From IMG/VR virus record IMGVR_UViG_3300022555_000004: a stretch of 64,000 nucleotides of DNA. One strand, 5' to 3'. How positions within the stretch are numbered: the first letter of the stretch is position 1; each line of letters starts with the position of its first letter. This document shows positions 8,064-57,258 of the stretch, piece after piece. The position numbers were made by a program, and so were the translations under genes. This DNA is from a virus. Taxonomy: Duplodnaviria > Caudoviricetes. A model generated the notes under the pieces. The model worked only from the letters and a program-made list of their open reading frames with translations, was not told where the DNA came from and did not search any database.

Positions 8064-8303
8064 TTATAATTCAAACAATTTATCATCTAATGATATCACA
8101 AAAGGAAAAACCTCTACGAATGGATTGTCATCTGGCTTATATGTTACCATACTTAGACGGCCTTTTGTGTCACTTATTTTTACCTGACCATAGCCAAATT
8201 TATCATCTTTTATTATTATAAAATATGTCAATGATTTGAAATATTGACACTCTGGACAATTACAATCCATACAATCTTCTTTAAATTTATAATATCGTTC
8301 CAT
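8064..8303 (-). CDS. LDDELFEL-tag family protein, subtype B (CxCPxC)
   Basis: Ends ISLDDKLFEL*. Confidence 0.8.
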   Translation of the reverse strand: MERYYKFKEDCMDCNCPECQYFKSLTYFIIIKDDKFGYGQVKISDTKGRLSMVTYKPDDNPFVEVFPFVISLDDKLFEL

Positions 8304-9019
8304 TATTTTATCATTTCCATCAATGTATCAAAGTCAATAATGGTTACGCGCGACCTTTTCATTGATTCACTTATTTTTCTTTTATGTTCATCTGACATAG
8401 GGCCTCTTTTCATTCCTGTTCTACTTTTACTCATTTTTTCCTTTGTTTCTTTGGTCATTGGATGTTTATTTTTTGCTGATATTGACATTTTTTCTCTGGT
8501 TGTCAACGAAAATGTTTTATTGATAGCCGATTTACTCATTTTCTTTTTTGTTTCATCTGATTTTTTTCTGCCTAAAAGTGATATACTTATTTTTTTTCTT
8601 ACGTCCGATGGTATAGTTTTTCCAAACATGTAACTCAATTCACCAGTATATTTTCCTATCATTGATAATGACCGTTTTTCAATAATTTCTTTTGAAAATT
8701 TATATCCTTTAGGTATGCCATCTCCACCCCATGTAAGATTATACCCACCTTCTGTCCAATGAGAATGGTTTACAATAATTTTCATGGTTTCCATGACACC
8801 TAAAACTAAGGCATCATCACATTCATATAATATTTCCCATTTGAAATTACCAAGACCATACTTTTTAATAGCACGATGAAAATATGTATTGCTTTTACTT
8901 TCAACACTATCTTTATGCCCTTGTCTTCTTTTATGTAATGATTGTGTTGTTTTGCCAACATAACATTTACCGTTGATTAAATTTGTTGATTTATAAATAA
9001 TACACAATTGTTCTGACAT
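8303..9019 (-). mobile_element. GIY-YIG homing endonuclease with NUMOD3 repeats
   Basis: CIIY...CYVGKT, GYNLTWGGDG, SDETKKKMS repeats; start MSEQL with RBS. Confidence 0.9.
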
Positions 9020-9033
9020 AAGATATACCTCAC

Positions 9034-9113
9034 TATAAATAAGATGTGGAAGGGACAGCAGCAAACCTCACGCTGTTTTCGGTGTGTTGACGCACCCGAA
9101 TTACCTTCTACAT
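9034..9113 (+). ncRNA. Three-way-junction element B with TATAAATA late promoter (9034-9041), antisense to the adjacent GIY-YIG gene
   Basis: P1 AUGUGGAAGG/CCUUCUACAU, P2 GACAGC/GCUGUU, P3 UUCGG/CCGAA; covaries with element A. Confidence 0.65.
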
Positions 9114-14331: not shown

Positions 14332-15339
14332 CTATTCTTTGTTCTTCAATAAAAAATCATTGTTGAGGCATTTAATACTCATTCTGCCATTCATTGCCCG
14401 TGAAACCATTTCTACGACTGGACGAATAACAATTCCTTCACGGAAATTATTAGTATCTTCATACACACCCTTTGCCATTTCTAACAATTCATCAACTGAA
14501 TTATTGAAATACCATATATCAATAATAGGCACCATTTCAAGTTGCAAATCTCGACAAACTTGTTTTAGTTCTTCAAAGTTTGCATATCGTTGTTCATCAA
14601 TAAACCATACATTGAATACAAACAATTTATGTCCTTTCAATTTCAGATGGTTCTTTTGTATTCCTTCGCCACACAACTCTGCCTGTATAGCAATATTCTT
14701 ACCATATTTCAAAAGTTTGTCTTGTAAGTCATACTTATACATCATTTTGATATAGATGTTGTCATCATTACCTTCTAATTTCAAGGCATTGTTGCGAGAA
14801 CAAACATTGATTTCATCGTTCAAACATCCAATCGTCCAACTTGTGCCATCACACTTTACGGTACTATAGACCTTCACGCCCCGTAACTCATTGATTACAT
14901 CAGGGTAGTTTTGTATCCTATCTTCATCTGTCTTAGGAATATAAGGCGGAAAATTACCTTTGATTAGCCCACGCATTTCAGGTGGTATTGGTTTTTCATA
15001 ATGAGTAACACCCAAAACATTAGAAATATCCAAATCTTCTTCAATAAGAAACGGAAATGGATAATCGGCCAAAATTGTAATTGGAAATACAATGCCTTGG
15101 GACAAAGCGCCACGTAATCTTTTGGTTTTGATACGGAATTTTTCTTTTCGTAAAAATTCAAAAATCATTGATTCACGTACAATAGAATCAAGGGCAATAT
15201 AAACACATAAATCACCAACTCTAAAGTCGCCACGCTTAGTCACAACCTGCCAACCCAAGACTTTTACTACATCTAAAAAGTCTGAATTTTCAACAGGCTG
15301 AACATCAATTATTCTTTGGATGGTTGCTTCTCTGGACAT
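14332..15339 (-). CDS. RNA ligase, Rnl2-like with N-terminal OB/tRNA-binding-like domain
   Basis: KCDGTS motif I, QAELCG.GIQKN, REGIVIR, KCLNNDFL. Confidence 0.9.
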   Translation of the reverse strand: MSREATIQRIIDVQPVENSDFLDVVKVLGWQVVTKRGDFRVGDLCVYIALDSIVRESMIFEFLRKEKFRIKTKRLRGALSQGIVFPITILADYPFPFLIEEDLDISNVLGVTHYEKPIPPEMRGLIKGNFPPYIPKTDEDRIQNYPDVINELRGVKVYSTVKCDGTSWTIGCLNDEINVCSRNNALKLEGNDDNIYIKMMYKYDLQDKLLKYGKNIAIQAELCGEGIQKNHLKLKGHKLFVFNVWFIDEQRYANFEELKQVCRDLQLEMVPIIDIWYFNNSVDELLEMAKGVYEDTNNFREGIVIRPVVEMVSRAMNGRMSIKCLNNDFLLKNKE

Positions 15340-15586: not shown

Positions 15587-15916
15587 TTAATCGTATTCAT
15601 AATCGTGTCCGTGTCTGCCTTTCCAGTTTTGTATCAACAAGTCTTTTGCTTTATCATTCAGATTATCCAAAGCACCAAAATCCGCATCCTCCTCACCAGA
15701 CACGCCTCGAGCATGTTGCCGTTCATGTTGTAAGATAATATCCTTTTCATTTTTAGTCAAAGACGGATCGTTACAGATAACAATAATAGTTTTAGATTTT
15801 GATGTTATAGTCAATGCGTATTGTTCGGTCGAATCAAAATCATCATTCACAGATAACAATGTTTTCTTGAACGTGTCGAAATCTGATTTAGATAAGTATC
15901 GTATTATAGTTTTCAT
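15587..15916 (-). CDS. Hypothetical protein with HExxH motif
   Basis: ILQHERQHA. Confidence 0.65.
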   Translation of the reverse strand: MKTIIRYLSKSDFDTFKKTLLSVNDDFDSTEQYALTITSKSKTIIVICNDPSLTKNEKDIILQHERQHARGVSGEEDADFGALDNLNDKAKDLLIQNWKGRHGHDYEYD

Positions 15917-16383
15917 TCTTTCCTCAAATAATCTATCAATTTACACATAGCATCGTAAACAGGTGTAAATACATCCAATTTGCTTTGTGCATTACCAGCA
16001 ATATTTATGATTTTGAAATCGTTTTCAATAATCCAATCGCCTACTTCTTTTATCATTGTGTATGTAATTGGATAACCAAGGTCTATATCTGTATGAGGTT
16101 TATCATATTCTTTGATGGCATTGAATGTGCATTTTTCGCCGGCGGAATTGAAGTTGAAGGCAAATCGTAATGTGCAATCAGAATTTTGAACATTCATATA
16201 TGTTCGTTTTTTGTAACCACCTTGAACTTCAACAAGGCCAAATTTATCACGGAGGGAAAAATCACTTCCATCTAATGTCATAAACTTAGAAGGAGCAAAC
16301 CCACCTGTTTCTATGCCTTTATAAAATGCTGCATAGAGTCCGGCTTGATCTGCCCCTGTTTGTCCGCCCGATATAATTTTCAT
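15913..16383 (-). CDS. SLOG-family (putative molybdenum-carrier-like) protein
   Basis: KIISGGQTGAD.AGL, RTYMNVQNSD.TL, INIAGN motifs. Confidence 0.85.
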   Translation of the reverse strand: MKIISGGQTGADQAGLYAAFYKGIETGGFAPSKFMTLDGSDFSLRDKFGLVEVQGGYKKRTYMNVQNSDCTLRFAFNFNSAGEKCTFNAIKEYDKPHTDIDLGYPITYTMIKEVGDWIIENDFKIINIAGNAQSKLDVFTPVYDAMCKLIDYLRKE

Positions 16384-17092: not shown

Positions 17093-17284
17093 TTATTTTA
17101 CTATTTTTCTTATAAATCGTTCTGTTATTCTGTATGCAAAAGAACAAATAGCAACACCAACACATATCAAAACTATGATAACTGCAAAAATTCCTGTTAA
17201 ACAACCGATTAACAGGAATATACTTAGTAATACTATGTATATGAATGGATGTTCTAATAGTTTTATTTTATATTCCTTTTTCAT
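17093..17284 (-). CDS. Hypothetical membrane protein
   Basis: Long hydrophobic stretch. Confidence 0.6.
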   Translation of the reverse strand: MKKEYKIKLLEHPFIYIVLLSIFLLIGCLTGIFAVIIVLICVGVAICSFAYRITERFIRKIVK

Positions 17285-17994
17285 ACAATTTCCTTATACA
17301 TATTTTTTTTACTATTTTTTTTACTATTTTTTCTGCCTTTGAACCACCCTTGTTTCAAATAATAATCAAGGTCGCTTTTTATGATTTTTTTATTTTCAAT
17401 GATGTTATATATCCAACATGTTCCGAATTGTGAATTTTTTTGCCCTTCATGTAATCCTGTATGTTTTTCACTCATTTTTCTCTTAGTTTCTTCTGAATGA
17501 CGTTTGCCTTTAAAAACATTCCCTGCGATTTCACTTCTTTTTTGTTTTATATCAGGAGAACCATTATGCGCCCATGATTCTAATCGTTTGTCTATTCCCA
17601 ACATACTAATTATTGATTTATAATTTTCACCATATTTTTCTTTCAATTTTATATCAGCGGTTATTCTTCCTTTTTTACATCGTTCAATATGATCTTTTGA
17701 ACCATCGTTTAAATAATCCCAACCACCTTCGTCACCTCGTTTGAGATTATACGTATTACCGGACTTCAAATATTCGTCTGTAACCAATTCTGATTCTTTG
17801 TCATCCATGTCCTTTTTGTTATCAAACACATGAAGAACCGTTTTCTCAAAACAATCTTTGCCATACTTGTTTATGGCACGTTTCAAATATTTTCCTGAAC
17901 CTAAGTAATTATCATAGATATTGTCTGTTTGATGTTTACCTATATATATTTTACCGTTCGCCTTGTTTCTAACTTCATATACGATATAGTTCAT
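17281..17994 (-). mobile_element. Seg-like GIY-YIG homing endonuclease within the tRNA cluster
   Basis: YIVY...KIYIGKH, YLGSG, NUMOD3 HSEETKRKMS; sense TATAAATA at 18014-18021; paralog of 31942-32610. Confidence 0.9.
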
Positions 17995-30364: not shown

Positions 30365-30438
30365 TGGTGCAACCGGCGGGAGTCGAACCCGCCTTTACTG
30401 GTTAAAGCCAGTTACTAAACCAGATCAGTTACGGCTGC
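30365..30438 (-). tRNA. tRNA-Lys (TTT)-like with 6-nt anticodon loop (possible 1-nt deletion error)
   Basis: ACUGG-CUUUAA-CCAGU; other arms canonical; CCA. Confidence 0.7.
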
Positions 30439-30443
30439 ATGTT

Positions 30444-30572
30444 TGGTAGGGTGTGCTTGGAATTGAACCAAGCGGCCACGTCATTATCAGTGAAGTAACT
30501 CTTATCTACACCACCGAATGGGGAACAAACGACAAAAGAAATTATCGTGCTCTAACACTGAGCTAACACCCT
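30444..30572 (-). tRNA. tRNA-Ile (GAT) interrupted by a 52-nt hairpin insertion (30494-30545)
   Basis: Removing the insert restores CGUCA-CU-GAU-AA-UGACG; acceptor, D and T arms intact; CCA. Confidence 0.75.
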
Positions 30573-30581
30573 ATATTGTTT

Positions 30582-30655
30582 TGGTCTGCGATCAAGGAGT
30601 TGAACCTTGTACATACGGGCCCAGGCCGTAGATGTCACCCATACACCAATCGCAG
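30582..30655 (-). tRNA. tRNA-Pro (TGG)
   Basis: C1 start; UACGG-CC-UGG-GC-CCGUA; CCA. Confidence 0.8.
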
Positions 30656-31178
30656 ATTATTTGAAATTTTTTCTAAATTTTTAATTACGTTTTTTGCTTT
30701 TATTCTATAAACACTATACCATACTTTTCTTTGCCTGTCAAGGAATTTTCTAATAAAAATGGGTTATAGAACACAAGTTTTAAATATCCTTATTTCCATT
30801 CTTTATCAGTAAACCACTGGATATTACTTATGATTTACTAACAAGGCGTTCTCTATAAGATTTCGTATAACTGGATGCCGAAGCATCATAACCCATTTTT
30901 GACAATAAAAAACGCCCAAACTTTTTAGGAGCATGGGCGGTTTTTGTGTACCTGTGTTGGAACTCGGCTAAAACACAAACCTCCACGCTTCCCTATAATA
31001 ATTTTTAGGTTCTTCTATGAGTATCGGTTTTGGCCCTAGTTCATTAAACATTTTTCTTCTTTCCTTTTCAATTAAAATTGCATAGAGGACTCATTTAATA
31101 TAATTTCTATGATTTGAGGCGGAGTCCTCTAGGTATGAATAATATTCTACCCTATTAATTTGCCTCACTGATTATTAT

Positions 31179-31941: not shown

Positions 31942-32610
31942 CTATATTTTAATTTTTCGTCCTTTATGCCACCCTTTTTGTAAATATTCATCAATGTTGT
32001 TTTTATCAACTCTAGTACATTCCACATCATTATAAATCCAACATTTGCCGTACATAGGATTTTTAATACCAGACCTATTGATGTTTTTTTGCGTTTGTTT
32101 CATTTTTTCTTTTGTTTCATTTGTGTGGTGTTTGCCTTTAAATGTTTTACCGGAATTTTCTGATCTTCGTTTTTTAATTTCAGGATCATTACTTTTTACA
32201 TATGTCAAAAGTGTTTTTTCATAAGATTTTTTTCCATTTTCACTTCTTTCATTTTTTGTAAGAAGGGCAAGACCATTATCATATCCTTTTTTACCAACCT
32301 CTGTGGCTATTTTTGGATTTTTATATATATGATCCCAACCACCTTCACCGCCTCGTTTCAGATTATAAATCATTTTGTTTTTTACTTCATCATCTGTAAC
32401 CAATTCGGCTTCTTTGTCATCCATGTCTTTTTTGTTATCAAAGACATGAAGGACAATTTTCTCAAAACAATCTTTGCCATACTTGTTTATGGCATGTTTT
32501 AAAATCCTACCAGAACCAAGATATTCATCATAGATATTATCCGTTTGATGTTTACCTATATATGTTTTGCCATTCACCTTGTTTCTAACTTCATATATTG
32601 TGTAGTACAT
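31942..32610 (-). mobile_element. Seg-like GIY-YIG homing endonuclease
   Basis: YTIY...KTYIGKH, YLGSG, NUMOD3; sense TATAAATA at 32631-32638. Confidence 0.9.
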
Positions 32611-32671
32611 AATTTTTTTACCTCTACACCTATTTATAAAAAGTTCGATACTTAGTAAACAAATAATTAAA

Positions 32672-32744
32672 TGGGTGATCGGAGGAAATCGAATCCTCGT
32701 ACTTGGGGCCACGACCCAAGGTTCTTCCATTGAACTACGACCAC
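32672..32744 (-). tRNA. tRNA-His (GTG)
   Basis: UUGGG-UC-GUG-GC-CCCAA; C73. Confidence 0.85.
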
Positions 32745-32867: not shown

Positions 32868-32940
32868 TGGTAGCCCATATGGTATCGATCCATAGTCGAA
32901 CGGTTATCATCCGTTTGCTCTTCCATTGAGCTACAGGGCC
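32868..32940 (-). tRNA. tRNA-Ile (GAT)
   Basis: AACGG-AU-GAU-AA-CCGUU; CCA. Confidence 0.88.
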
Positions 32941-53955: not shown

Positions 53956-56900
53956 ATGAATAAAGGAATAGAAAATTCACAATTGAGTGAAATGGCAAAA
54001 AGAATATTTTTGGATTTGTATAGTTTCAGTGATGAAACTATTGACGATACATTCAAACGGGTTTCAAAAGAATTTGGTAACGATGATGATGCTAAATTAG
54101 CATATGACTTAATGAAGAAAAATATATGGCGTCCATCAACACCGATATTTTTTAATTCGGGGTCAACGAAAAAGATTTTTTCGGCATGTTGGGTGGTAAA
54201 CCTTGATGATAGTATGGATAGTATATATGATGTAGCAAATGTTGCAAGAAAAATCTTTCAGAGCGGTGCTGGCATTGGTATTCCTATTGGCAAGTTGCGT
54301 GAAAAGGAAGCTAATATATATGAAGGTCAGGAGAAAACTGATAATGTTCCCAGCGGACGTTCAAGCGGCCCAATATCATTTATGACATTATTTGATGCTG
54401 TTGGGGCAACAACAAAATCTGGTGGTAGAGCAAGACGAGCAGCTATTATGTGTGCTATGCCCATAAACCATCCTGATATTATGGAATTTATCGAATGTAA
54501 AAGTGTTGATGGTGTGTTGTCAAATATGAATATATCTGTATCTGTTACAGATGACTTTATGCAAGCATTCAAAGATAATATACCATATTCTTTGATATCA
54601 CCCGCCAATGGCCCTGTAAAGGAAATAAATGCTAGAGTTATTTGGGATAAGATTGTTGATATGGCACACAAGACTGCCGACCCTGGCGTTTTGTTTATTG
54701 ATACTATCAACAAATTCAATCCTCTGAAAAAAATATTGAAAATTGATTGCACAAATCCTTCGTTGAGGGCAGGAACAAAGGTTATTACTGATGGTGGTAT
54801 ATATCCGATAGAACAATTAGAAAACAAAAAATTTCTTGTTATAAATCAAAAGGGTGAATATTCACCAGCAAAATGCTTTTTATCAGGAAAAGAGAAAGAA
54901 TTGTTTGAAATAACATTAATGGGAGGTAAAAAGTATTATTCAACTGCCGAACATAAATGGCCAGTGTTGAATAACAACATATATGAAAAAAGACAGACAA
55001 CCGACCTCAAATCAGGCGATTACCTACCTATTGTAAGAATGAATTCTCTTGGATATGGTGTGAAGGGCAATTATGATGATGGTTTCGTTATTGGATGGAA
55101 TCTAGGAGATGGATGGATAACAGATAGAAAGGATAATGGTAAACGTCAGTATGGGTTTATATTTAGTAATGAAGATATTGAAAATGGAATATATGATAGG
55201 GTGATGAAAAAAATAACATCAATAACAAATAAAGTATATAATCCTTCAAAGATAGATGGTTGCATTGAATTTAATACAACAAATAATGATTTAGATACTT
55301 TCTTTAGGTCGTATGGTGTTGATAAAAAATCAACTGGGATGCCTTCTAGTGTATGGACAACAGCATCAGAGGAATTTAGAAAAGGGTTGATTGACGGTTT
55401 ATTTTCATCAGATGGTTATGTCGATAAATCTGGAAGCCGATGTGTTTTTTGCAGTAGTAATTATAAATTAGCATCAGATGTTTCAGAAATATTAGGATTT
55501 TATGGAATCAAAACAAGATTAACAGAGTCAACATCATCTAATATATCGTTTCCAAATGGAAAATTATATGGCAGAGCTTATACTAGATATTTCGTACAAT
55601 TGTTCACATCATCATTGATGCATTTTAGAGACATATTTACTCTTTCAAATAATAGGAAAAATGAGTTGATGTGGATGAAAAAATCATTAAATAAAGGTGG
55701 AATGGTATATGATAATATTAAAATAAAGAGTATAACCAAAACAGATATAAAAGAAGATGTGTGGGATATTAGTGTTTTTGATGATACACATACTTTTAAA
55801 CTTTCTCATGTGATCACAGGAAATTGCGGCGAACAGCCTTTGATTCCATATACATCTTGTAATTTGAGTTCAATCAATTTACATAGATTTTGTAGTAATG
55901 ATGGATATAATTTTGATGGACTATATAAAACAGCATACAATGTTACAAGATTGATGGATAATCTTATTGATAATATGGAATTTCCAGATGAACGGTTCAA
56001 AATTAATGTATTGAAGTATCGTCCAATAGGTGTTGGTATTATGGGGTTGGCGGACACTTTATATGAAATGGGTTTGCCATATGATGATAAAGAAGGACAG
56101 ATATTTGCTGAAAAATGTATGAAGATTGTTACTACAGCCAGCTTAGAGGCTAGTTCTGATATAGCAAAGGAAAAAGGAACATTTACTGATTATAAACTTG
56201 TAGAAGATGATGTTTTAGAAATTGTATCTTCTTTTATTGATGACCCATCAGTATTAGAAAAAATTAAAAAATATGGTTTGAGAAATTGTCAACACACAAC
56301 GGTGGCGCCAACCGGAAGTATTGCTTTATCATGTGATTGTTCATATGGTATGGAACCGAGTTTTGGTTTAGTATTTCAAAAAAGATTGGTTGAATCTGGT
56401 GATACATATATTTTAGTCAATCCAATATTCAAAAAGAAGTATGAAAACGAATCATGGTATACACCTGAAATGATTGAGAAAATCGTTCAAAACGGAGGGT
56501 CATTGAAGGGTATTAGAGGAATACCAAAAGAAGTACGTGAAGTATTTGTTGTTGCTCATGATATTAAAGCTAAGGATAGAATTGATATGCAGTCTGTATT
56601 ACAAAAACACGTATCGACTGCCATTAGTAGCACGACAAATTTACCATCCACAACAACAAGGGATGAAATATCTGAAATATATAGATATGCTTATCAAAAA
56701 GGACTGAAAGGTGTTACAATTTATAGGGATGGTTCTAAAAAATTGCAACCCATTTCTTTTTCAAATAAAGAGAAAGTAGAGGTTGTTCCTAATTTTAAAC
56801 GACCTACAAAATTATTAGCAGTTAGACATGAAGTTGAAACCGGCAATGGTAAAATGTATATCATCGTATCAACACATGATGGCAAACCTGTAGAAGTTTT

Positions 56901-57258
56901 TCTTTCAATGGGTAAATCTGGACAATTATTCAATAGTTTTTGTGAGGGTCTTGGAAGAACCGTATCCATTGCGTTACAACACGGAACGCCGGTAGCGGCA
57001 ATCATCAAAACCCTTGAAGGAATAAATTCAGACCGTCCTAATTGGTTCAGGTTTGAGGAAACAGATAAAAAGCCAACACAAATATTGTCGATTCCAGATG
57101 CTATAGCAAAATTATTGGAACGATATTACCTGAATGATAATAAAATCATCAATGTTGAATCAGAAGGTGAATTATGTCTAAAATGTGGTAGATATGCTGT
57201 TATACCTTTTGAAGGATGCCATATATGCACATCATGTAATGATAGTCGGTGCGGATAA
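53956..57258 (+). CDS. nrdJ: Class II (adenosylcobalamin) ribonucleotide reductase with intein and C-terminal TSCPD/Zn-ribbon
   Basis: SAC, GAG.G, RRAA, HPDI.EFI.CK, NISV, TNP/CGEQPL, APTG, KGVTIYRDGS. Confidence 0.93.
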   Translation: MNKGIENSQLSEMAKRIFLDLYSFSDETIDDTFKRVSKEFGNDDDAKLAYDLMKKNIWRPSTPIFFNSGSTKKIFSACWVVNLDDSMDSIYDVANVARKIFQSGAGIGIPIGKLREKEANIYEGQEKTDNVPSGRSSGPISFMTLFDAVGATTKSGGRARRAAIMCAMPINHPDIMEFIECKSVDGVLSNMNISVSVTDDFMQAFKDNIPYSLISPANGPVKEINARVIWDKIVDMAHKTADPGVLFIDTINKFNPLKKILKIDCTNPSLRAGTKVITDGGIYPIEQLENKKFLVINQKGEYSPAKCFLSGKEKELFEITLMGGKKYYSTAEHKWPVLNNNIYEKRQTTDLKSGDYLPIVRMNSLGYGVKGNYDDGFVIGWNLGDGWITDRKDNGKRQYGFIFSNEDIENGIYDRVMKKITSITNKVYNPSKIDGCIEFNTTNNDLDTFFRSYGVDKKSTGMPSSVWTTASEEFRKGLIDGLFSSDGYVDKSGSRCVFCSSNYKLASDVSEILGFYGIKTRLTESTSSNISFPNGKLYGRAYTRYFVQLFTSSLMHFRDIFTLSNNRKNELMWMKKSLNKGGMVYDNIKIKSITKTDIKEDVWDISVFDDTHTFKLSHVITGNCGEQPLIPYTSCNLSSINLHRFCSNDGYNFDGLYKTAYNVTRLMDNLIDNMEFPDERFKINVLKYRPIGVGIMGLADTLYEMGLPYDDKEGQIFAEKCMKIVTTASLEASSDIAKEKGTFTDYKLVEDDVLEIVSSFIDDPSVLEKIKKYGLRNCQHTTVAPTGSIALSCDCSYGMEPSFGLVFQKRLVESGDTYILVNPIFKKKYENESWYTPEMIEKIVQNGGSLKGIRGIPKEVREVFVVAHDIKAKDRIDMQSVLQKHVSTAISSTTNLPSTTTRDEISEIYRYAYQKGLKGVTIYRDGSKKLQPISFSNKEKVEVVPNFKRPTKLLAVRHEVETGNGKMYIIVSTHDGKPVEVFLSMGKSGQLFNSFCEGLGRTVSIALQHGTPVAAIIKTLEGINSDRPNWFRFEETDKKPTQILSIPDAIAKLLERYYLNDNKIINVESEGELCLKCGRYAVIPFEGCHICTSCNDSRCG
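54760..55824 (+). mobile_element. 355-aa intein with LAGLIDADG endonuclease
   Basis: Interrupts TNP|CGEQ; begins SLRAGTKV, has TAEHKW block B, GWNLGDG and GLFSSDG motifs; ends ITGN. Confidence 0.92.

What the first reader, a model, noticed from the sequence alone, without database searches (positions are those of the whole stretch)
30444..30572. tRNA-Ile split by a 52-nt hairpin at position 28/29
Seen: precise removal of 30494-30545 restores a perfect 5-bp anticodon stem and GAU loop. The insert folds as a long hairpin (UAA-UUCU-UGUC/GAUA-AGAG-UUA). It is too short for a group I/II intron, and an intact Ile(GAT) exists at 32868. Known: short protein-spliced introns at non-canonical positions are an archaeal trait. 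Inference: a phage tRNA intron needing a nuclease plus the phage ligase, a conditional tRNA, or a decoy.
Basis: partly seen in the sequence, partly recalled or inferred. Interest (0 to 1): 0.68.

Follow-up and report, generated by a model that had tools for sequence, protein, structure and literature searches.

The report
Y-RNA handle inside a phage tRNA
A lake phage's isoleucine tRNA gene has a 52-base hairpin in its anticodon stem that closely matches the stem of bacterial 'Y RNAs', the part thought to bind the RNA-surveillance protein Ro60, so the gene is more likely a tRNA-shaped Ro60 partner than a tRNA with an archaeal-type intron.

Summary
On the minus strand, 30572..30444 is a tRNA-Ile(GAU) with intact acceptor, D and T arms and an encoded CCA. 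Exactly 52 nt (30545..30494) sit between positions 28 and 29.

The interpretation changes. The insert belongs to a conserved family: 50 covariance-model hits in 65 sources (64 phage loci plus this window), and hits in bacterial genomes. The family sits at the same tRNA site in tRNAs of at least six anticodon types and has two helices backed by compensatory changes. Its two strands align almost base for base with the two strands of the stem of Y RNAs (YrlA type) encoded between rsr (Ro60) and rtcB in Flavobacterium and Tundrisphaera. In 12 of 28 phage loci with the insert, a Ro60 gene lies 163-492 nt away on the same strand.

So the gene reads as a circular permutation of a YrlA-type Y RNA: a complete tRNA carrying a capped stem like the presumed Ro60-binding stem. 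I found no BHB motif, group I/II intron or ribozyme signature. Ro60 binding is inferred, not shown. No rsr lies in this window, and splicing is not excluded.

The scan met such inserts before on other DNA: e1-4039926 read one as a mini-intron, e1-5587654 as a Y-RNA-like handle.

The parts
30713..30741 (-). Sigma-70-like promoter (TTGACA-17-TATAGT with TG) ahead of a three-gene tRNA operon
   Evidence: 11 of 12 hexamer matches. Consensus match only; expression was not measured.
30582..30655 (-). tRNA-Pro(UGG), first gene of the operon
   Evidence: ARAGORN.
30546..30572 (-). tRNA-Ile 5' part: acceptor 5' strand, U8 A9, D arm, A26, C27 G28
   Evidence: Identical in L006, L010 and L011.
30539..30545 (-). 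Single-stranded leader of the handle (AUAAUUU). Most family members start with UAA/UAU/UAC here.
30531..30538 (-). P1 5' strand, CUUUUGUC
   Evidence: Pairs with 30506..30499. The family helix shows compensatory changes. The G-to-A change in the sister phage turns a G.U pair into A-U.
30524..30530 (-). Internal-loop strand GUUUGUU, identical in the Flavobacterium rsr-linked Y RNA
   Evidence: Alignment A7.
30511..30523 (-). P2 hairpin CCCC-AUUC-GG(U)GG, which caps the stem. In bacterial Y RNAs the RNA's 5' and 3' ends lie here instead.
30506..30512 (-). GGUGUAG, a degenerate form of the GNCGAA(N)G motif that lies in the same place in YrlA RNAs
   Evidence: The motif is described in PMC4201824. 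This is a positional analogy; binding was not tested.
30499..30506 (-). P1 3' strand, GAUAAGAG
30494..30498 (-). Tail UUACU. GUUA is invariant and the following C is nearly invariant across the family.
   Evidence: Alignment A4. Also present in the rsr-linked Y RNAs.
30444..30493 (-). tRNA-Ile 3' part: U29 C30 A31, loop CUGAUAA, UGACG, variable loop, T arm, one extra C, acceptor 3' strand, A73, CCA
30365..30438 (-). Third gene of the operon: tRNA-Lys-like with a 6-nt anticodon loop, CUUUAA
30332..30357 (-). Intrinsic terminator (11-bp stem and U tract) closing the operon

Best explanation
The 129-nt gene is a tRNA-Y RNA chimera. It is a complete tRNA-Ile(GAU) body (open acceptor end, encoded CCA, canonical anticodon loop) with a capped copy of a YrlA-type Y RNA stem, the stem taken to bind Ro60/Rsr, branching from the anticodon stem between nucleotides 28 and 29. 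It is a circular permutation of the Y RNAs that bacteria encode between rsr and rtcB. In those, the same two stem strands are the RNA's 5' and 3' ends and the acceptor stem is closed by a loop. Likely working, all inferred: the RNA is transcribed with tRNA-Pro and a tRNA-Lys-like gene from its own promoter. It is trimmed like a tRNA by RNase P and 3' exonucleases, and the tRNA fold and CCA end make it stable and perhaps chargeable. The handle stays on and binds a Ro60 ring, from the host or from a phage gene outside this window. This would tether Ro60 to whatever binds the tRNA body, or block or hijack Ro60. Shown here: family membership, conserved helices, homology to rsr-linked Y RNA stems, and linkage of the family to rsr. 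Inferred: Ro60 binding, absence of splicing, and the biological role.
For: (1) A covariance model built from 18 family inserts, without this phage, finds 30539..30492 as the only significant hit in the window (33 bits, E about 1e-4). It finds 50 hits in 65 sources, 64 phage loci plus the window. (2) Over 36 distinct sequences, P1 and P2 are 86.5% paired, against 64.5 +/- 1.5% after shuffling and at most 52% with partners slid. Eleven of 12 pairs show changes on both sides. In my own partner shuffle, 90.8% were paired against 66%. There are 46 G.U against 2 A.C pairs, so the helix forms on the tRNA-sense strand. (3) Both strands of the insert align almost base for base with the two strands of the stems of RNAs that Rfam's YrlA model hits: L240, L213, L271 and L164 at 41-47 bits, E 1e-5 to 1e-8. 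In L240 and L271, Pfam shows a TROVE/Ro60 gene and an RtcB gene flanking those RNAs. (4) The Flavobacterium RNA has the same junction (GAGC-ACG | handle | UCG-CUGUUAA-CGACG) but a closed acceptor hairpin, so there the 'insert' cannot be an intron. (5) Twelve of 28 phage loci with the handle encode a Ro60 homologue in the same roughly 9-kb locus, against 15 of 170 other loci (Fisher p = 3e-5). All 12 are on the same strand, with the nearest handle 163-492 nt away. This meets the rsr-proximity pattern that Chen et al. 2014 used to identify YrlA RNAs (PMC4201824). (6) A precedent exists: M. smegmatis YrlA is cut by RNase P and receives CCA in vivo, which gives the same open-acceptor form (PMC4201824). 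(7) The sister phage (L006; flanking genes 87.7% identical in DNA) keeps 126 of 129 nt. All three changes turn a G.U pair into a Watson-Crick pair in stems of the handle as predicted for the sister's sequence. (8) The gene sits in a compact promoter-to-terminator tRNA operon.
Against: No TROVE/Ro60 gene lies in the 64-kb window or the sister loci. None lies in four more distant relatives, one of them a complete 223-kb genome. A Ro60 partner for this copy is therefore assumed. Rfam's YrlA model does not hit the window, as expected for a permuted form but still a failed test, and its hits on the bacterial RNAs are below the gathering score. The GNCGAA(N)G-like motif is degenerate here (GGUGUAG). 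Family members keep canonical 7-nt anticodon loops (U33, purine 37) of several identities, and removing the handle always restores a perfect 5-bp stem. That pattern is what a removable insert in working tRNAs would show. Ro60 binding, RNA size in vivo and charging are all untested.
Confidence: 0.6

Rival explanations
1. It is a removable insert, that is, a protein-spliced intron. Nucleases cut or trim both single-stranded linkers back to the anticodon stem. The two halves stay paired, and a ligase seals the nick at 28/29 to give a working tRNA-Ile. The ligase would be the nick-sealing enzyme at 14332-15339 here, or RtcB in the sister phage. The Y-RNA-like stem could make this conditional on Ro60.
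For: Exact removal gives a perfect tRNA whose anticodon arm is identical to that of many natural tRNA-Ile genes. All clean family members restore 5-bp stems with canonical loops of defined identity, namely Asn, Lys, Cys, Ile and Arg. The junction lies inside a helix, which is the ideal substrate for a duplex-nick ligase. The window encodes an OB-fold plus PF09414 RNA ligase, the sister phage encodes RtcB about 3 kb downstream, and L101 also has RtcB.
Against: I found no BHB motif by hand, and there is no intron or ribozyme match in Rfam. The distance from the conserved UUAC to the 3' junction varies from 0 to 7 nt, so no fixed cleavage site can be seen in the insert. In the homologous bacterial RNAs the same stem is the RNA's termini and cannot be spliced. 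RtcB next to Y RNAs is the normal rsr-operon arrangement and needs no splicing to explain it. I found no intron-less copy of the commonest Asn host tRNA in IMG/VR. There is no RNA evidence either way.
Confidence: 0.2
2. It is a stranded relic. A Y-RNA-type tRNA cassette was moved by recombination into a phage that has no Ro60, and it now does nothing useful or only serves as a processing spacer.
For: No rsr lies in the window, the sister loci or the relatives. The region is mosaic, with different neighbouring tRNAs in the sister phage and three Seg-like GIY-YIG genes nearby. The tRNA body has defects: an extra C, and a D loop without GG. The next gene has a 6-nt anticodon loop.
Against: The element is 97.7% identical to the sister's copy while the flanking genes are 87.7% identical, and the three changes all keep or improve pairing. 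It has a strong promoter and a terminator. A recent transfer of the cassette could mimic this conservation.
Confidence: 0.12
3. It is a small self-cleaving or self-splicing ribozyme of a new class.
For: It is a conserved structured RNA of about 50 nt with invariant nucleotides near a junction.
Against: There is no match to any Rfam ribozyme, even at E up to 10 on the 181-nt stretch. The same stem occurs as the open ends of bacterial Y RNAs. The 3' junction distance is variable.
Confidence: 0.03

Closest known systems
YrlA-type bacterial Y RNAs (Rfam RF02553; Chen et al. 2014, PMC4201824; Wang et al. 2018, bioRxiv 10.1101/312249)
   Same: Both join a stem of the type described as Ro60/Rsr-binding, with a GNCGAA(N)G-type motif beside a 7-9-bp helix, to a tRNA-like body with D arm, T arm and acceptor stem. 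The family is encoded within about 0.5 kb of rsr on the same strand in 12 phage loci, and between rsr and rtcB in Flavobacterium and Tundrisphaera. The stem strands are nearly identical to this window's insert.
   Different: [quoted passage not shown] Here the topology is permuted: open acceptor with encoded CCA, a full canonical Ile anticodon arm, and the stem capped by a loop. This copy has no rsr within 30 kb and lies in a tRNA operon of a T4-like phage. Rfam's model does not detect it.
[quoted passage not shown]
   Same: The end product is a tRNA-shaped RNA with an open, CCA-ending acceptor stem that still carries the Ro60 stem and is bound by Rsr.
   Different: There it is two RNA pieces made by cutting a closed acceptor loop. 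Here it is one chain, encoded in that form, with an anticodon loop.
Archaeal non-canonical (BHB) tRNA introns (PMC4090602, PMC3241643)
   Same: Short inserts at non-canonical tRNA positions, including the anticodon stem. Removal restores the cloverleaf.
   Different: I found no bulge-helix-bulge motif at these junctions and no splicing endonuclease in the parts of the window I scanned. The insert family has its own conserved helices and is linked to Ro60 genes.
'Enigmatic' introns of Lak megaphage tRNAs (Devoto et al. 2019, PMC6784885)
   Same: Short, highly conserved inserts in phage tRNA genes, with no known splicing route.
   Different: Those were predicted with tRNAscan's eukaryotic settings, which model anticodon-loop introns, and one is itself tRNA-shaped. 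Ro60 is not mentioned in the passages I read.

Membership tests
YrlA / bacterial Y RNA | Long stem carrying the Ro60-binding site, with a GNCGAA(N)G motif on the strand 5' of the tRNA-like body | tested here: inconclusive
   The stem is present and aligns with the stems of rsr-linked Y RNAs. The motif is degenerate here (GGUGUAG; GUCGUAG in L240, GUUGAAG in L056). Binding was not tested.
YrlA / bacterial Y RNA | tRNA-like module with T arm, D arm and acceptor-like stem | tested here: met
   A full cloverleaf once the handle is set aside.
YrlA / bacterial Y RNA | Encoded within about 4 kb of rsr (TROVE) on the same strand | tested here: not met
   No TROVE gene in the window or sister loci. The feature is met by 12 of 28 family loci and by L240 and L271.
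YrlA / bacterial Y RNA | Scores above the Rfam RF02553 gathering threshold (69 bits) | tested here: not met
   No YrlA hit in the window, even at E up to 10. The permuted order defeats the model. The bacterial relatives score 41-47 bits.
YrlA / bacterial Y RNA | Bound by Ro60/Rsr in cells | not testable with these tools
   Needs immunoprecipitation or a gel-shift assay.
Handle-bearing tRNA family defined here (model R1) | P1 and P2 helices, UUAC tail, insertion after nucleotide 28 of a tRNA | tested here: met
   33 bits with a model built without this sequence. Junction k=2.
Archaeal/eukaryal protein-spliced tRNA intron | Bulge-helix-bulge (or relaxed) motif presenting both splice sites | tested here: not met
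   Read by hand. The 4 nt before C42 (AUGA) have no complement at the start of the insert (AUAAUUUC), so no 3-4-3 motif forms.
Group I / group II intron or known small ribozyme | Match to the family's covariance model; size | tested here: not met
   At 52 nt there is no Rfam match other than tRNA.
Bacterial tRNA-Ile(GAU) | A1-U72, A73, anticodon loop CUGAUAA, canonical cloverleaf | tested here: inconclusive
   All are present after removing the handle in silico, and the arm is identical to natural genes. Against this, there is an extra C at the T/acceptor junction, the D loop lacks GG, and the handle is present in the gene.

The most novel reading that the evidence does not exclude
The handle makes this a Ro60-gated tRNA. 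Either Ro60 with its exonucleases and RtcB or another RNA ligase removes the handle on demand, which would be a bacterial or phage tRNA 'splicing' route built from the rsr-rtcB repair module. Or the charged, handle-bearing tRNA carries Ro60 to the synthetase, EF-Tu or the ribosome. Either would finally give the tRNA-like half of bacterial Y RNAs, and the rsr-rtcB pairing, a concrete job.
Probability: 0.15. Interest if true: 0.9.

Novelty: new variant of a known kind. Interest (0 to 1): 0.68.

Why it matters
Bacterial Y RNAs have been known since 2014 to mimic tRNAs, but what the tRNA-like half does is still open. The published forms lack both a CCA end and an anticodon loop. Here, and in dozens of large phages and some bacteria, the same type of stem sits on complete, identity-bearing tRNAs (Ile, Asn, Lys, Cys, Arg). 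Charging, EF-Tu or ribosome contact, and anticodon-nuclease sensing therefore become directly testable. It also gives a practical warning: some short 'introns' in phage tRNA genes, at least those of this family, are better read as Y-RNA-type handles, and tRNA finders miss these genes altogether.

Tried and rejected
- **Archaeal BHB intron:** rejected. I could build no such motif by hand.
- **Group I/II intron or known ribozyme (hammerhead, twister, pistol, hatchet):** no Rfam match.
- **tRNA-Glu with a giant variable arm:** this would use the first hairpin, CGAUA..UGUCG. Rejected because the loop has 8 or 6 nt and ARAGORN reads a 2-base anticodon.
- **Nested degenerate tRNA starting at GGUGGUG (30515):** Rfam gives 23 bits, below threshold, with a 2-nt D loop. 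I treat it as a by-product of the handle's 3' strand pairing with G43 and the variable loop.
- **Repeat or MITE within the window:** no second copy.
- **Phage GenBank search (blastn) and exact-word scans of IMG/VR for this phage:** nothing found.
- **First metagenome scan with an exon-2 word:** nothing found.
- **Intron-less version of the commonest Asn host tRNA in IMG/VR:** none found.
- **Family pattern scan in bacterial genomes:** 65 hits against roughly 130 expected by chance. Only 11 passed the tRNA test and 13 passed the model.
- **Ligases near the handles:** RtcB or the window's ligase type lies within the held loci in only a few cases, so I draw no conclusion from this.
- **Literature searches for this kind of insert in phage tRNAs:** nothing beyond Devoto 2019 and the Y RNA papers.

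Full report
**The object.** All tRNA genes of this window lie on the minus strand. Between tRNA-Pro (30655..30582) and a tRNA-Lys-like gene (30438..30365), ARAGORN and Rfam call nothing. The sequence there nevertheless reads as a tRNA with something in the middle:
- a 7-bp acceptor stem, a GCUC/GAGC D arm and a CUUGG-UUCAAUU-CCAAG T arm;
- A73 and an encoded CCA;
- 52 nt (30545..30494) between C27-G28 and U29-C30-A31.

Removing exactly these 52 nt gives CGUCA-CUGAUAA-UGACG, and ARAGORN then calls tRNA-Ile(gat). No other cut point gives a perfect stem. The joined 22-mer occurs uninterrupted in at least 120 metagenome contigs, and the 69 distinct surrounding sequences I extracted read as ordinary tRNA-Ile genes.

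Two blemishes remain. One extra C sits between the T stem and the acceptor strand. Against the natural genes (GGGUGUG...CACACCC) this looks like a one-base shift of the acceptor register. The D loop also lacks GG.

**It is real and kept.** Two independent ENA assemblies carry the identical sequence. A sister phage from a Logan assembly (L006/L007) has flanking genes 87.7% identical in DNA and carries the same gene with 126 of 129 nt identical, although the tRNAs on either side differ. The three differences all lie in the insert, and each turns a G.U pair into a Watson-Crick pair in the sister's predicted fold. This could also follow a recent cassette transfer, so on its own it is moderate evidence for selection. 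The three genes sit between a near-consensus promoter and an intrinsic terminator.

**A family.** I wrote a scanner for acceptor + D arm + T arm genes of 95-230 nt. It found further insert-bearing tRNAs in unrelated phage contigs and none in shuffled sequence. A gapped pattern scan of IMG/VR then gave at least 119 stretches, 75 of them distinct well-formed tRNAs with inserts.

In the cleanest cases the insert follows the second nucleotide of the anticodon-stem 5' strand, usually after 'A CG'. One recurrent type matches the window's insert:
- an A/U-rich leader;
- an 8-9-bp helix P1;
- a U-rich strand;
- a capped hairpin P2;
- a G-N-Y-G-N-A-like strand;
- the P1 return strand, then an invariant GUUA and a nearly invariant C.

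A covariance model was built from 18 such inserts, without this phage. It finds 30539..30492 as the only significant hit in the window (33 bits), and 50 hits in 65 sources, 64 phage loci plus the window. On 36 distinct sequences the helices are 86.5% paired, against 64.5% after shuffling and at most 52% with partners slid. Eleven of 12 pairs show changes on both sides. That alignment was fitted to the model, which favours the structure, but my independent partner shuffle agrees. G.U pairs outnumber A.C pairs 46 to 2, so the helix belongs to the tRNA-sense strand. Host tRNAs include Asn, Lys, Cys, Ile, Arg and others.

**The turn.** The same pattern and model also hit bacterial genomes. Three of these hits lay beside RtcB genes.

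Rfam's YrlA model (Y RNA-like) hits exactly there: L240 and L213 (Flavobacterium), L271 (Tundrisphaera) and the phage contig L164. The scores are 41-47 bits, below the gathering score but with E of 1e-5 to 1e-8. In L240 and L271, Pfam finds a TROVE/Ro60 gene on one side and RtcB on the other; for L213 and L164 the same neighbours rest on tblastn hits.

The Flavobacterium RNA reads, 5' to 3':
1. the return strand of the stem (..GUCGUAGAUAAGUGUUACU);
2. a full Asn-like anticodon arm;
3. the variable loop and T arm;
4. an acceptor stem closed by a loop;
5. the D arm, then ACG;
6. the other stem strand (UAAAUUUCACUUAUCGUUUGUU..).

This is a circular permutation of the window's gene. Both strands of the window's insert align with it almost base for base. 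In that bacterial RNA the 'insert' is the pair of RNA ends, so it cannot be an intron.

**Linkage to Ro60.** A tblastn search with Rsr proteins shows a Ro60 homologue in the same locus for 12 of 28 phage loci that carry the handle, against 15 of 170 other loci (p = 3e-5). All 12 are on the same strand, with the nearest handle 163-492 nt from the gene. Being close to rsr on the same strand is the pattern Chen et al. used to identify YrlA RNAs. They also showed that M. smegmatis YrlA is cut by RNase P and receives CCA while bound to Rsr, which is the two-piece equivalent of the form encoded here. [quoted passage not shown] This family has both.

**This copy.** No Ro60 gene lies in the window or the sister loci. 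Four more distant relatives, one of them complete, have neither Ro60 nor the handle. The partner would therefore be a host Ro60 or a gene elsewhere in the roughly 229-kb genome. The handle is closest in sequence to the Flavobacterium Y RNA, and the window has 29-37% G+C. These are weak hints about the host.

The window encodes an OB-fold plus PF09414 RNA ligase. The sister phage encodes RtcB about 3 kb downstream.

**Reading.** Most likely (about 0.6) the RNA works unspliced as a Y RNA: it is processed and stabilised as a tRNA, and the handle binds Ro60. Splicing to a working tRNA-Ile remains possible (about 0.2). The perfect restoration and the canonical, identity-specific anticodon loops across the family are its best support. 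Those loops could instead serve charging, since Ile, Asn, Lys, Cys and Arg synthetases read the anticodon (established knowledge). A stranded relic (about 0.12) and a new ribozyme (about 0.03) are less likely. No RNA data could be obtained.

**Novelty.** I found no paper describing complete tRNAs that carry a Y RNA stem. Iyer et al. note only that some jumbo phages have TROVE proteins. I class this as a new variant of a known kind, the YrlA-type Y RNA.

Noticed in passing
window 30365-30438 (-): A tRNA-Lys-like gene with a 6-nt anticodon loop, CUUUAA, one U short of CUUUUAA. It is identical in three assemblies, while the sister phage has a normal Lys(UUU) at L006:2992-3065.
   Followed up: partly
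IMG/VR loci L127, L129, L138, L144, L150, L043, L063, L071, L076, L117, L118, L086: A second recurrent type: tRNAs whose anticodon region holds a nested module with its own T-arm-like and D-arm-like hairpins, a 'tRNA within a tRNA'.
   Followed up: no
IMG/VR loci L078, L097, L143, L125, L090, L082, L044, L130, L137, L079, L068: A third type of 44-57-nt insert at or within one base of the same 28/29 site, with a hairpin followed by (A/C)AC(A/U)GCAA. None of these loci has a Ro60 hit, so it may be a different element, possibly a true intron.
   Followed up: partly
L220, L236, L246, L253, L259, L263 (Polyangium and Polyangiaceae genomes): One to three handle-bearing tRNA-like genes per locus, several with odd 6-nt anticodon loops. 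A Ro60 homologue lies nearby in L259 and L263.
   Followed up: partly
L271:4550-4900 and L164:3370-3640: The rsr-linked Y RNA region is a chain of alternating capped handles and tRNA-like modules, not a single YrlA.
   Followed up: partly
window 8303-9064, 17281-17994, 31942-32730, 2020-2532 (all -): Three Seg-like GIY-YIG genes (two with NUMOD3) and one HNH homing-endonuclease gene lie scattered through the tRNA region.
   Followed up: no
window 53956-57258 (+): The ribonucleotide reductase large subunit is 1100 aa, and its family matches fall in two blocks (residues 45-218 and 624-1099). This suggests an intein or other insertion.
   Followed up: no
window 15913-16383 (-): A circularly permuted YpsA (SLOG) protein is encoded close to the RNA ligase gene.
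   Followed up: no
L006:2781-2856 (+): In the sister phage, a stretch with a good T arm (GGUGG-UUCGAUU-CCACC) but no callable tRNA lies just upstream of the handle-bearing tRNA.
   Followed up: no
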